A stretch of DNA of 64,000 nt. It comes from the human T2T-CHM13v2.0 reference genome, Homo sapiens. The stretch lies in assembly GCF_009914755.1 (NCBI RefSeq), contig NC_060925.1, one strand, 5' to 3'. Positions 24,462-27,211 of the stretch are shown one piece after another (the first letter of the stretch is position 1; the number at the start of each line of letters is the position of its first letter). The notes below the pieces were generated by a model. The model was given only the letters and a program-made list of their open reading frames with translations. It searched no databases and was not told the origin of the DNA. The position numbers and the translations under genes are program-made.

Positions 24462-25576
24462 CGTCACATCAGATATTATAGAGAAGGACTAAACTGAGCT
24501 ATGGGGGGTCAGAGCTTTTCTGATGAAGTGAAATTTAAAGTGAGCCTTGAGGGATCATCAGTAATTTGCTAGGGAAGGAGTGAGAGCAAAAGACTTTTCA
24601 TGCGTAAGGAATAACTTGTACAATGCATAAGGAATAACATGCATAAGGAATAACTTGTACAATAACTTGTACAAAAGAGGTAAGAAGGAACATGGTGTTT
24701 TATGTAATGGGAGAAGATCAGTGTGGGGAAGCTTAGTGTGCCTCCAAACCAGATGAAATAGATACTATTATAATTATCCTCATTTGTAAGGAAACTGAGC
24801 TGCAGACAGCCTGAATAACCAAGTAACTAGCTCAAGGTCATACAACTGCAAAGTGGTAGGGTGTGGATCTGAATCTTGGCAATCTTTCTCTAGAGGCTGC
24901 CATGCTATCACTTTGTGCTGCCTTTCAGCTGAGAATGGAAATGGTAGGCAAGGGCCCAAACCATGCAAAAGCTAGTAAAATGGCTTTCTTCTACAAGCAA
25001 TATCAAATTCGTTTCTCAAGGCATTTCTCTAGGCCAGCAGATCTTACCTAACCCATTTGGTTAGGAGACCATAGGAAAATCTGATGAAAGATGTAGACAG
25101 CCTCATCATAATGAATGTGTTCAAACACATAACACAAATTTACATATGTTTTTTGATGGCTCACAGACACCCTAGCCCATTTATAATCTCCTTAGTAGTC
25201 CAAACATTGCAGAAAAGCAATCTGTGGGCTGCATTTTCCCCTCCTGCTGGCCTCCTGCCTCCTATCTCTATCTTAGATACTTTTGTTGATTCAGTTCTTG
25301 CTCTCTGCCATCTTACAAGAAATTTGCAAGCTTCCAGGAACAGAAGATTTCATCTTTCACTGAAGCCCTGGGGCCATGTCATTTAAAATACCTCTAGCAA
25401 GAGTGCTGGGCTATGGTCAGGAAATGATTTTCATCTCAACCTGCTCTCTGACAACTTTCTCCCCTGTTTCCCTATCCATAACATGGAAATTTGTTAGCAC
25501 CTATATTTAGTGCTTTGCTTGAAGACCCATATCCTGGCACTTCCTATGTTAAAATATGCCATAAAAATCCAAATGT

Positions 25577-25726
25577 GCCGGGTGCGGTGGCTCACGCCTG
25601 TAATCCCAACTCTCAGGGAGGCAGAGGTGGGAGGATGGCTTGAGCCCAGGAGTTCAAGACCTGCCTTGGCAATATAGTGAGACCCCGTTCTCCACAGAAA
25701 GAGAGGGGGAAAAAAAGACAAAAAAA
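25577..25726 (+). pseudogene. BC200 (BCYRN1)-type Alu-monomer retrocopy lacking the unique 3' domain
   Basis: Carries BC200 rather than FLAM-C diagnostics as recalled: CTCTCAGGGAGG, GACCTGCC, CAATATAG, CCCCGTTCTCCA, and AAAAGACAAAA in the A-rich region. Confidence 0.8.
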
Positions 25727-25745
25727 GGAAATTACCAGACCCTTC

Positions 25746-26094
25746 GGCCGGGCATGGTGGCTCACCGCCTGTAATCCCAGCACCTTGGGAGGCTGAGGTG
25801 GGTGGATCACGAGGTCAAGAGATGGAGACCATCCTGGCTAACACGGTGAAACTCCGTCTCTACTAAAAATACAAAAAAAAAAAAAAAAAAAAAAAATTAG
25901 CCGGGCATGGTGGTGGGCATCTGTAGTCCCAGCTACCCAGGAGGCTGACGCAGGAGAATGGCGTGAACCCGGGAGGTGGAGCTTGCAGTGAGCCGAGATC
26001 GCGCCACTGCACTCCAGCCTGGGTGACAGAGCGAGACTCCGTCTTAAAAAAAAAAAAAAAAAAAAAAAAAAAAAAAAAAAAAAAAAAAAAAAAA
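25746..26094 (+). mobile_element. AluY with A24 middle tract and pure A49 tail
   Basis: Diagnostics accatcctggctaacacggtg and gagaatggcgtgaacccgggag..gagcttgcag. Confidence 0.93.
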
Positions 26095-27211
26095 TCCAAA
26101 TGTATGTCTATAATTCAGTTTACAATAAGTCTACTTTTCACTGAATTATATTTGAGAGTAAAATTGTATTAGAGTATTGAATTACATTTCAGAGTAAATT
26201 TCTGGTATAATTATGCTTTACTCTGACTTCTTCATAATTGTTTTTGAATTTGTAGGTGATATTCAGAAAAGTGTTCTGAGACCTTTGGAAAAAAACCCCA
26301 TATAAATGCAGAGCATTACGACTATAATAATAATTATTTTGCTGCTATTTCCACCATTGATCCTGAAACTATTTTTTCCTCTGCTTCCAATTAGCTATTT
26401 TCTCCCTCCCATCCAAAATAAGGAGTGACAGCTTTAAATTAGCTAAAGATAAAAAAAAAAAAATCCTTGAAGTACTGTCTGCAGTGACAACCTTACGAGG
26501 TAGAGGAGAGCTTTTTGATACCATCCCACACACCAGCTTATGAGAGCTGATTGTTAAATATTTTGGAGTTTTATAAGTTGACAACTGTTTTAGATGTCAA
26601 AAGCCAATGGAGTAAAAATGCTCTGATGAGTCAATAATAAAATACTGAGCAATACCACAACCAAGACACTGACATAAGTGTTATAGGGAAGACCAAGTAT
26701 GTCTTTAACCTATAGTCTAAATAGATACATGGGAGGCTATGGGCCCCTCAAGGGTAGAGTCTTCTTAATAAACACTTGCCATGGTTTGGGCCACTGAAAG
26801 ATATCAGTGAAACACATGTTTGTTGAATGAACAAATAAATGGATAAATGCTAAGGTGCAGTGCTGCCTAGCATTGGGAAGATGACTTTCAAGAGAATCCC
26901 AGAGACTCATGTCCAGATTAGGAGAAAGGAAATGTCTTTCTGATGACTTCCTTGAAATTGACATATATAAGGAATAAGGACTAATGAATAAATACTTGTG
27001 TTCTGTTCTTTTCTTTGGGCCTTTTTCTCTACCTCTCTTACTTATCTTCCTGACTTGGTAGAGTGTAATCCATTTGAAATACTGCTCAGTGGAGCCCCCA
27101 GTGGTTTAGTAGATCTGTGAAATTCGATATTATTTTCTTACAAAAACTCTCCTCTGGGGGTAGTAACCTTTGTCAGTCTCCTAGTTTTGGCTTTGTTGTG
27201 CAAAGTGAACT

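What the first reader, a model, noticed from the sequence alone, without database searches (positions are those of the whole stretch)
25563..26103. Composite BC200-AluY trimeric retroposon inside a single target-site duplication
Seen: AAAAATCCAAATGT occurs directly before the monomer (25563-25576) and directly after the AluY tail (26090-26103). It brackets the monomer, a 19-nt unique spacer GGAAATTACCAGACCCTTC (25727-25745) and the AluY. The AluY has no TSD of its own, and there is no TTTT Pol III terminator in the unit. The monomer has BC200-specific residues. Established: BC200 is a Pol III Alu-monomer RNA with many retrocopies, and L1 TPRT yields one TSD per insertion. Inference: the ~520-nt unit moved as one RNA, transcribed from a BC200 retrocopy elsewhere that reads through into an adjacent AluY. 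That would imply a second-generation source locus and possibly an unrecognised small trimeric SINE family. An RT template-switch chimera is the alternative.
Basis: partly seen in the sequence, partly recalled or inferred. Interest (0 to 1): 0.85.

Follow-up and report, generated by a model that had tools for sequence, protein, structure and literature searches.

The report
One-off BC200-copy/Alu chimeric retrocopy
This is a single old insertion in which the copying enzyme of LINE-1 most likely joined two different small RNAs, an Alu RNA and the transcript of a BC200 copy on chromosome 4, into one piece of DNA; it is a rare, cleanly documented example of a known process, not a new repeat family.

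Summary
AAAAATCCAAATGT brackets a BC200-type monomer, a 19-nt spacer, a full-length dimeric Alu and a 48-A tail. Neither part has a duplication of its own, and the unit has no TTTT.

The new result is the origin of the spacer. Of 52 other spacer-like places in the genome (2 mismatches or fewer), 1 abuts a BC200-type monomer, at G000:C4:39664603-39665221. There the spacer sequence is that retrocopy's own target-site duplication. It lies on both sides of the monomer, and the 3' copy runs straight into a run of 7 T, a Pol III terminator. No sense-strand Alu follows.

So the 5' half of the chr1 unit spans the Pol III unit of the chr4 copy, from 1 nt inside its canonical start to its terminator. 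That end is joined to base 1 of an Alu.

It contradicts read-through into an adjacent Alu. The junction is unique in the genome, so there is no trimeric family. Both halves are equally decayed, as expected for one event.

It is a new member of the known class of chimeric retrocopies. Interest is modest.

The parts
25563..25576 (+). 5' copy of the target-site duplication AAAAATCCAAATGT. The pre-insertion site reads CAT/AAAAATCC, close to the L1 endonuclease preference TT/AAAA.
   Evidence: The consensus is as quoted in passages of PMC1802616 and PMC13174262.
25577..25726 (+). BC200-type retrocopy body: an Alu-like domain starting at GCCGGG, then an A/G-rich central region ending in GAC plus 7 A. 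It is the old subtype (GGCAGAGG, CTCCACA) with the rarer CACAGAAAG..GGGGG variant.
   Evidence: Rfam gives only a sub-threshold Metazoa_SRP match at 25577-25692 (59.6 bits against a gathering score of 70).
25727..25745 (+). 19-nt spacer. It is a copy of the 3' flank (the target-site duplication) of the chr4 BC200 retrocopy, up to its T-run terminator. It matches the chr4 5' copy at 17 of 19 bases and the present chr4 3' copy at 16 of 19. The final C is unexplained.
25746..26046 (+). Full-length dimeric Alu starting at its base 1 (GGCCGGGC). By recall it is of the Y/Sc lineage. The middle A-linker is expanded to 24 A. About half of its CpG sites are decayed.
26047..26094 (+). Pure run of 48 A. 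It is the Alu poly(A) tail where reverse transcription was primed, and its last 5 A's overlap the 3' duplication copy.
26090..26103 (+). 3' copy of the target-site duplication AAAAATCCAAATGT.

Best explanation
The unit is one L1-mediated retrotransposition event that fused two separate Pol III RNAs. L1 ORF2p nicked the chr1 site at CAT/AAAAA and primed reverse transcription on the poly(A) tail of a full-length Alu RNA, copying it to its 5' end. Instead of finishing, it continued on a second RNA: the Pol III transcript of a BC200 retrocopy on chr4 (G000:C4, about 39,664,900-39,665,105). That transcript consisted of monomer, A-rich region and 3' flank, and ended at the flanking T-run terminator. 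ORF2p copied it to within one base of its 5' end. Integration then produced a single 14-bp duplication around the whole 518-nt unit. Shown: the anatomy, the single duplication, the identity of the spacer with the chr4 flank, the terminator there, the absence of a sense Alu there, the uniqueness of the junction, and the equal decay of both halves. Inferred: that the join was an end-to-end template jump during reverse transcription rather than ligation of the two RNAs beforehand; that Pol III made the chr4 transcript; and the age, roughly 25-30 Myr from about 2.4-2.9% non-CpG change using a recalled rate of about 1e-9 per site per year.
For: (1) A single exact duplication brackets the unit, and neither part has its own. 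(2) 1 of 52 non-self spacer-like hits abuts a BC200-type monomer. About 0.001 is expected by chance even if all 1408 first-look candidates are counted as copies. A 17-nt exact identity next to such a copy has an expectation of about 2e-6. (3) At that locus (L045) the sequence lies on both sides of the monomer as its target-site duplication, so it is native to chr4 and the direction is chr4 to chr1. (4) The chr4 3' copy is followed at once by 7 T. The chr1 spacer stops exactly there (..GACCCTT, then C, then Alu base 1). The monomer starts one base inside the canonical 5' end. So both ends of the 5' half coincide with a Pol III transcription unit. (5) The window and chr4 copies share the CACAGAAAG..GGGGG variant. 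The exact 16-mer CGTTCTCCACAGAAAG occurs at only 4 places in the genome. (6) The spacer keeps CCC like the chr4 5' copy, while the present chr4 3' copy has CCT. This is as expected if chr1 froze the older state. (7) All 10 Alu matches in the 3 kb around the chr4 copy are antisense. (8) Decay is equal in both halves. Monomer: 3 private non-CpG changes in 124 nt and 3 of 7 CpG sites hit. Alu: 7 to 12 non-CpG changes in 280 nt and 11 of 23 CpG sites hit. Fisher p = 1 for both comparisons, computed with 8 of 280. (9) Chimeras with these hallmarks are a described product of L1 reverse transcription: same orientation, direct join, one duplication, 3' poly(A) (PMC2104539 passages; PMC4476161 passages).
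Against: No orthologous primate site could be examined, so one-step origin rests on anatomy and equal decay, not on presence/absence data. One base at the junction, the C at 25745, is explained by neither parent. The expected reading is T (a later T-to-C change) or an untemplated base. In the published class the 3' part is usually a 5'-truncated LINE; here it is a full-length Alu. Chimeras with Alu as the primed template are reported as rare and were not reproduced experimentally (PMC4476161 passage). The two monomers share only one derived change in 124 nt, also found in other copies, so descent from chr4 rests on the flank. The whole-monomer DNA search did not list the chr4 copy among its 40 scored hits of 1408 candidates. 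The A-rich regions differ in length (7 A against 17 A plus GAAAGAA), which needs slippage or later change. Template jump and prior RNA ligation cannot be told apart from DNA alone. The Alu consensus is crude: the 12 nearest of 41 Alus that happened to lie in fetched loci.
Confidence: 0.8

Rival explanations
1. Same two parent RNAs and one insertion event, but the RNAs were ligated end to end before reverse transcription, as shown for U6/L1 chimeras by RtcB. The fused RNA was then retrotransposed.
For: [quoted passage not shown] Ligation is also listed as an option for Alu/L1 chimeras (PMC13174262 passages). It would give the same DNA: a direct sense-sense join of a complete 3' end to a complete 5' end.
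Against: That reaction needs a 2',3'-cyclic phosphate, a U6-specific end made by USB1, and a 5'-OH (PMC6789731 abstract and section headings). From general knowledge, a fresh Pol III transcript ends in 3'-OH and a full-length Alu RNA starts with a triphosphate. The Alu is full length rather than cut at a random internal site. Nothing in the DNA tests this directly.
Confidence: 0.1
2. Two sequential insertions at chr1. First the chr4 transcript inserted as a tailless retrocopy ending with the spacer. Later an Alu inserted exactly at the spacer/duplication boundary without making a duplication of its own.
For: Tailless retrocopies of Pol III RNAs exist (PMC5322556 abstract and passages). Alus often lie next to BC200 copies by chance; in the copies printed, L014 and L025 sit inside an Alu and L020 has one 33 nt downstream. 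The 3' duplication copy begins with AAAAA, a usable L1 endonuclease site.
Against: There is no A and no duplicated base between the spacer and Alu base 1. The Alu would therefore need a zero-length duplication at one exact nucleotide. Tailless copies arise by internal priming at A-rich stretches. That would have dropped the spacer, since the RNA has a long A-rich region upstream of it. Both halves show the same decay. I rejected my earlier variant, in which the spacer arrived with the Alu as a 5' extension or filler into the monomer's A-run, once the spacer proved to be the chr4 monomer's flank.
Confidence: 0.05
3. A source locus with a BC200 copy, the spacer and an adjacent sense AluY was transcribed as one roughly 520-nt Pol III RNA and retroposed, possibly founding a trimeric SINE family.
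For: The unit has no TTTT, so Pol III could in principle read through it. It has one duplication.
Against: At the locus where the spacer is native, it runs into a 7-T terminator and no sense Alu follows. The exact 19-mer is unique in the genome. The only 1-mismatch hit has no monomer or Alu beside it. Of the 52 hits at 2 mismatches or fewer, none other than chr4 adjoins a BC200-type monomer. The best non-self matches are only 91% for the monomer and 90% for the Alu, so no sibling or daughter copies are seen. Only one assembly was searched.
Confidence: 0.02

Closest known systems
Chimeric retrogenes/retropseudogenes made by L1 template switching (Buzdin, Gogvadze and co-workers; U6/L1 type)
   Same: Two unrelated RNAs are joined directly in the same orientation. 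The 5' part is a complete small Pol III RNA. There is one duplication, a 3' poly(A) and an L1 endonuclease-like site (features as listed in PMC2104539; PMC4476161).
   Different: The 3' (first-copied) part is a full-length Alu, not a 5'-truncated L1 or mRNA. The 5' part is not a housekeeping RNA but the transcript of a retrocopy, recognisable by its private flank. Buzdin 2003 (NAR) is not held, so I could not check its list for BC200 or Alu-Alu cases.
Alu/LINE-1 chimeric insertions (Law and Burns 2026, PMC13174262)
   Same: A mostly full-length, sense-oriented Alu-type RNA is fused 5' of another retrotransposed RNA within one duplication. 452 cases are catalogued, and ligation or template switching is proposed (passages).
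   Different: There the primed template is L1; here it is an Alu, so both partners are SINE-type RNAs. BC200 and BCYRN1 have 0 occurrences in that paper's main text. Its supplementary tables were not opened.
BC200 (BCYRN1) retropseudogenes
   Same: Same BC200-specific Alu-like domain and interrupted A-rich region. It belongs to the oldest of three subtypes visible among the fetched copies.
   Different: Ordinary copies end in the A-rich region or within the first bases of the BC200 3' unique region, followed by their own duplication. This one continues into a foreign flank and an Alu. It descends from a retrocopy, not from the BCYRN1 gene. A review states that at least one monomeric copy other than BC200 has also produced new monomer insertions (PMC5753468 passage). 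Kuryshev 2001 was seen only as a reference entry.
Origin of the dimeric Alu by fusion of a free left and a free right monomer (Quentin 1992)
   Same: SINE-type RNAs are fused head to tail into a longer composite that keeps a 5' internal Pol III promoter and lacks an internal terminator.
   Different: That fusion founded a family of over a million copies; this one left no detectable progeny. The paper was seen only as a reference entry, and the comparison is from general knowledge.

Membership tests
L1-mediated chimeric retrocopy (template-switch type) | Both parts in the same transcriptional orientation and directly joined | tested here: met
   Monomer, spacer and Alu are all on the + strand. 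The join has one unexplained base, the C at 25745.
L1-mediated chimeric retrocopy (template-switch type) | One target-site duplication around the whole chimera, a 3' poly(A) and an L1 endonuclease-like site | tested here: met
   A 14-nt exact repeat, with 0 of 100 shuffles reaching the observed count. A48 tail. Site CAT/AAAAA against the quoted TT/AAAA.
L1-mediated chimeric retrocopy (template-switch type) | 5' part is a full-length copy of a cellular RNA | tested here: met
   It starts at GCCGGG, one base inside the canonical start, and ends where the chr4 source has its T-run terminator.
L1-mediated chimeric retrocopy (template-switch type) | 3' part is a 5'-truncated copy, mostly of a LINE, cut at a random site | tested here: not met
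   The 3' part is an Alu complete from base 1. The jump was from the very 5' end of the template. I file the unit in the class by mechanism, as an atypical member.
L1-mediated chimeric retrocopy (template-switch type) | The two parts come from different loci or RNAs | tested here: met
   The 5' part maps to chr4 through its flank, and no sense Alu is adjacent there. The Alu source locus was not identified; the best non-self match is 90%.
BC200 (BCYRN1) retropseudogene | BC200-specific substitutions in the Alu-like domain and the BC200 A-rich region | tested here: met
   Alignment with BCYRN1 (L039) and with 29 other BC200-type copies.
BC200 (BCYRN1) retropseudogene | Direct copy of BCYRN1 RNA, with the 3' unique region or an end within BC200 sequence | tested here: not met
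   After the A-run comes the chr4 flank, not the BC200 3' unique sequence. It is a second-generation copy.
   There is 1 exact copy in the genome. Of the 52 other hits at 2 mismatches or fewer (against 48 for the reversed control pattern), none carries the monomer-spacer-Alu order. Only one assembly was searched.
Read-through (transduction-type) retrocopy | A source locus where the transduced parts are contiguous | tested here: not met
   At the chr4 source the spacer is followed by 7 T, unique sequence and an antisense Alu.
RtcB-ligated chimeric RNA (U6/L1 type) | Donor RNA with a 2',3'-cyclic phosphate and acceptor with a 5'-OH | not testable with these tools
   The requirement is taken from PMC6789731. 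RNA end chemistry cannot be read from DNA.

The most novel reading that the evidence does not exclude
The chr4 BC200 retrocopy is, or was, an independent Pol III gene that starts and terminates correctly without the BCYRN1 upstream region. The chr1 unit would then be a caught-in-the-act example of SINE-to-SINE end-to-end template jumping primed on an Alu. This is the kind of event thought to build composite SINEs such as the dimeric Alu, here with both the parent and the product preserved. The product has a 5' promoter and no internal terminator, so it was a potential trimeric SINE that failed to amplify. If the chr4 copy is still expressed, it would be a second BC200-like RNA in catarrhines.
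Probability: 0.12. Interest if true: 0.55.

Novelty: new member of a known kind. Interest (0 to 1): 0.35.

Why it matters
Chimeric retrocopies are the main genomic evidence that L1 reverse transcriptase changes templates in vivo. Most known cases involve U6 or L1, and their junctions rarely reveal where on the acceptor RNA the switch landed. Here both parents are defined to within about one base: base 1 of an Alu RNA and the terminator-defined 3' end of a Pol III transcript whose private flank identifies its locus. That gives a clean natural example of end-to-end joining with an Alu as the primed template, a configuration reported as rare (PMC4476161). It also shows that at least one BC200 retrocopy was transcribed. 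It has no apparent bearing on DUSP10 and founded no family, so it is a well-resolved curiosity rather than a new system.

Tried and rejected
(1) A whole-monomer DNA search for a near-identical source. The best non-self hit was 91%, and the true source was not among the 40 scored of 1408 candidates. The short spacer pattern found it instead.
(2) The 1-mismatch spacer hit on chr10 (L002). It has no monomer or Alu beside it and is a chance match; I estimate about 1.3 such hits are expected.
(3) The spacer as a diverged piece of the BC200 3' unique region. By eye about 10 of 19 columns match with 2 gaps, which is not better than chance. I dropped this once the chr4 flank explained 17 of 19 bases.
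(4) The spacer as a 5' extension or filler that arrived with the Alu into the monomer's A-run, my own sequential model. Rejected.
(5) An Alu search for siblings sharing its private changes. The best hit was 90%, with no sibling.
(6) Rfam. It gave only sub-threshold SRP-Alu-domain matches and Alu-derived miRNA family matches, with nothing specific.
(7) Literature. Searches found no description of a BC200/Alu chimera or of this locus. Kuryshev 2001 (J Mol Biol) and Buzdin 2003 (NAR) are not held and may list such cases. No supplementary tables were opened.
(9) Orthologous primate sites and other human assemblies cannot be reached with these tools.
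Full report
**1. The observation**

The 14-mer AAAAATCCAAATGT lies at 25563-25576 and again at 26090-26103. With one mismatch allowed the window holds 3 hits, the third at 12946 on the other strand. Shuffles give a mean of 0.08, and 0 of 100 reach 3.

Between the two copies lie four parts:
- a monomeric Alu-like element with an A/G-rich tail (25577-25726);
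- the 19-nt spacer GGAAATTACCAGACCCTTC (25727-25745);
- a dimeric Alu that starts at its first base (25746-26046);
- an uninterrupted run of 48 A (26047-26094).

The last 5 A's of the tail double as the start of the 3' repeat. The strictly unambiguous repeat is therefore TCCAAATGT plus some A's.

The Alu has no repeat of its own, because the spacer end does not recur after the tail. The monomer has none either. There is no TTTT in 25577-26094, and the next one downstream is at 26135. The pre-insertion site, CAT/AAAAATCC, resembles the TT/AAAA preference of the L1 endonuclease quoted in PMC1802616 and PMC13174262 (passages).

**2. The monomer is BC200-derived**

I fetched the BCYRN1 gene from the same genome (L039 = G000:C2:47340256-47340656). 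I also fetched 29 other copies found with the monomer as query.

The window copy carries the stretches that set BC200 apart from ordinary Alu arms, and the BC200 A-rich region with its GAC interruption. It is 87% identical to BCYRN1 over 154 nt, against 78% to a generic Alu arm.

The fetched copies fall into three subtypes:
- GGCAGAGG with CTCCACA;
- GGCAAGAGG;
- GGCTAAGAGG with CTCCAGA, as in the present gene.

The window copy is of the first type. It also has a rarer variant, CACAGAAAG followed by a G-run. Rfam adds only sub-threshold SRP Alu-domain matches.

**3. Where the spacer comes from**

A genome-wide pattern search found the exact 19-mer only at the window's own place. There was one hit with 1 mismatch and 51 hits with 2 mismatches. 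The total was 53, against 48 for the reversed control pattern, so the hits are at chance level as a set. The 1-mismatch hit (L002, chr10) has nothing Alu-like beside it.

I fetched the 45 places for which one search had cut no locus. I then printed 45 nt on each side of all 52 non-self hits. Exactly one, L045 = G000:C4:39664603-39665221, is followed at once by a BC200-type monomer.

The structure of L045 is as follows:
- a 5' copy, AAGAAATTACCAGACCCTT;
- the monomer, starting GCCTGGTGCAG;
- CTCCACAGAAAGGGGGGAAAAAAGAC, then 17 A, then GAAAGAA;
- a 3' copy, AGAAATTACCAGACCTTT, running into a total of 7 T;
- unique sequence, then an antisense Alu.

The spacer sequence is thus the target-site duplication of the chr4 retrocopy. 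It is native to chr4, so the direction of transfer is chr4 to chr1.

The window spacer matches the chr4 5' copy at 17 of 19 bases, with 17 consecutive identities. It matches the present 3' copy at 16 of 19, which is why one search did not list that copy. The spacer keeps CCC like the 5' copy, where the present 3' copy has CCT. That is the pattern expected if chr1 preserves the older state of the 3' flank.

The chance expectation for one of 52 hits lying within 25 nt of a monomer end is about 0.001, even taking all 1408 first-look candidates as copies. For a 17-mer identity there it is about 2e-6.

The two copies also share the CACAGAAAG..G-run variant. The exact 16-mer CGTTCTCCACAGAAAG occurs at 4 places in the genome. 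Among the 24 places I inspected, six are BC200-type copies with CACAG, and two of these (chr4 and L101 on chr3) have the G-run; the window copy makes a third. One further BC200 copy, on chr2 (L019/L099), has a similar G-run but reads CACAA.

**4. What this says about mechanism**

The 5' half of the chr1 unit begins one base inside the canonical start of the monomer. It ends where the chr4 locus has a strong Pol III terminator. It therefore spans the Pol III transcription unit of the chr4 retrocopy.

That 3' end is joined to base 1 of a full-length Alu. Only one base, the C at 25745, is unaccounted for. It is either a later T-to-C change or an untemplated base.

At chr4 there is no sense Alu downstream. 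All 10 Alu matches in the 3-kb locus L087 are antisense. A read-through RNA from monomer into Alu therefore cannot have come from the locus where the spacer is native. An Alu that once sat exactly at the terminator and was later excised precisely is not credible.

- reverse transcription was primed on the Alu poly(A) at the chr1 nick and ran to the 5' end of the Alu RNA;
- it then continued on the 3' end of the chr4 transcript;
- integration made one duplication.

This matches the hallmarks of the described chimeric retrocopies: same orientation, direct join, one duplication, 3' poly(A) and a complete small RNA as the 5' part (PMC2104539; PMC4476161). The exception is that the first-copied part is a complete Alu rather than a truncated L1.

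Prior ligation of the two RNAs, shown for U6/L1 (PMC6789731), would leave the same DNA. I rate it lower because that reaction needs end chemistries not expected for these RNAs. This judgement is general knowledge, not a test.

**5. One event or two**

Against a consensus of 14 old-type BC200 copies, the two copies compare as follows.

| Copy | Differences in 124 nt | CpG transitions | Others | Private |
|---|---|---|---|---|
| Window | 7 | 3 | 4 | 6 |
| chr4 | 9 | 3 | 6 | 8 |

One difference, the CACAG change, is shared by both copies.

None of the 8 chr4-private changes is in the window copy. The transcript was therefore made early in the life of the chr4 copy, within about its first 31% at the 95% level.

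For the Alu I used a consensus of the 12 nearest of 41 distinct Alus that happened to lie in fetched loci. This is a crude reference. It shows 11 CpG transitions among 23 CpG sites, 12 other substitutions and a 1-nt insertion. Five of the 12 substitutions are shared by 5-50% of the other Alus and look subfamily-diagnostic, leaving 7 to 12 of 280.

| Half | Non-CpG change | CpG sites hit |
|---|---|---|
| Monomer | 2.4% | 43% |
| Alu | 2.5-4.3% | 48% |

The two halves are indistinguishable (Fisher p = 1 for both comparisons, computed with 8 of 280).

A sequential origin would need two unlikely things. It needs a tailless insertion that kept the spacer despite the long A-rich priming site upstream. 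It also needs an Alu landing on one exact nucleotide with no duplication and no A between the spacer and the Alu. I give it about 5%. Only orthologous sites in other primates can settle it, and these tools do not reach them.

**6. No family**

The junction is unique in this assembly. The best non-self matches are 91% for the monomer and 90% for the Alu. No daughter or sibling copies are seen. None of the other BC200 copies printed shows a monomer and an Alu inside one duplication. Where an Alu is close, the BC200 copy either has its own duplication in between (L020) or lies inside the Alu (L014, L025).

The unit has a 5' internal promoter region and no terminator before 26135. It could in principle be transcribed as a roughly 560-nt RNA, but there is no sign that it ever amplified.

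**7. Comparison with what is known, and novelty**

The unit belongs, by mechanism, to the L1-mediated chimeric retrocopies. It is unusual within that class in three ways:
- the primed template is an Alu, a configuration called rare and not reproduced experimentally in PMC4476161;
- both partners are SINE-type Pol III RNAs;
- the acceptor RNA can be traced to a specific retrocopy through its private flank, and its 3' end is defined by the terminator.

Secondary monomeric sources besides BCYRN1 are already mentioned in a review (PMC5753468 passage).

The recent catalogue of L1 chimeras reports 452 Alu/L1 cases and does not mention BC200 in its main text (PMC13174262). Its supplements were not opened.

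My four literature searches found no description of this locus or of a BC200/Alu chimera. The two most relevant older papers, Kuryshev 2001 and Buzdin 2003, are not held, so prior description cannot be excluded.

The label AluY rests on recall. By recall, the changes at consensus positions 196, 199 and 218 are Y/Sc-lineage markers.

The age is a rough inference. BC200 arose 35-55 Myr ago according to the review PMC6114260 (passage). About 2.4-2.9% non-CpG change suggests some 25-30 Myr, using a recalled rate.

**8. Verdict**

The single event and the second-generation BC200 source are right, and the source has been found. Read-through and a trimeric family are contradicted. This is a new member of a known kind, of modest interest.

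Noticed in passing
L010-L039 (copies printed); window 25577-25726: BC200 retrocopies in this genome fall into three sequence stages: GGCAGAGG with CTCCACA; GGCAAGAGG; and GGCTAAGAGG with CTCCAGA as in the present BCYRN1 gene. They appear to record successive states of the master gene. This echoes the title of Kuryshev 2001, which I could not read.
   Followed up: partly
L018, L022, L032, L035 and others: Many BC200 retrocopies end a few bases into the 3' unique region, at ..ATAAGCGTAA or AAGTGTAA, directly before their duplication. This suggests a preferred internal priming point rather than use of the RNA's true 3' end.
   Followed up: no
window 25866-25889 and 26047-26094: Both A-tracts of the Alu are very long and pure for an element with about half of its CpGs decayed. 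The linker has 24 A, 18 more than the consensus, and the tail has 48 A. They have probably expanded by slippage, and their lengths may be variable between people.
   Followed up: no
L045 268-317 (G000:C4:39664870-39664919): Just upstream of the chr4 retrocopy, AGATTACCAAACCCT lies about 25 nt before the similar AAATTACCAGACCCT of the duplication. It may be a small local near-repeat in the target DNA, and its meaning is unknown.
   Followed up: no
L101 = G000:C3, about 32,810,040-32,810,300: A chr3 BC200 copy has the same CACAGAAAG plus G-run variant as the chr4 and chr1 copies but keeps the start of the BC200 3' unique region (AAGTGTAA). The variant therefore existed in an RNA with the BC200 3' end, either a past state of the gene or another source.
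   Followed up: partly
window 25898-25949 (+) and 25966-26025 (-): Sub-threshold Rfam matches to mir-1268 (56.7 bits against a gathering score of 83) and mir-3135 (44 against 80) lie inside the Alu right arm. These are Alu-derived miRNA families, and there is no evidence of a real precursor here.
   Followed up: no
L048, L057, L079, L084: Four of the 2-mismatch spacer-like hits share long similar flanks (..ctcttg..aaa.tcc.taa..). They belong to some interspersed repeat that happens to contain a spacer-like word and is unrelated to the finding.
   Followed up: no
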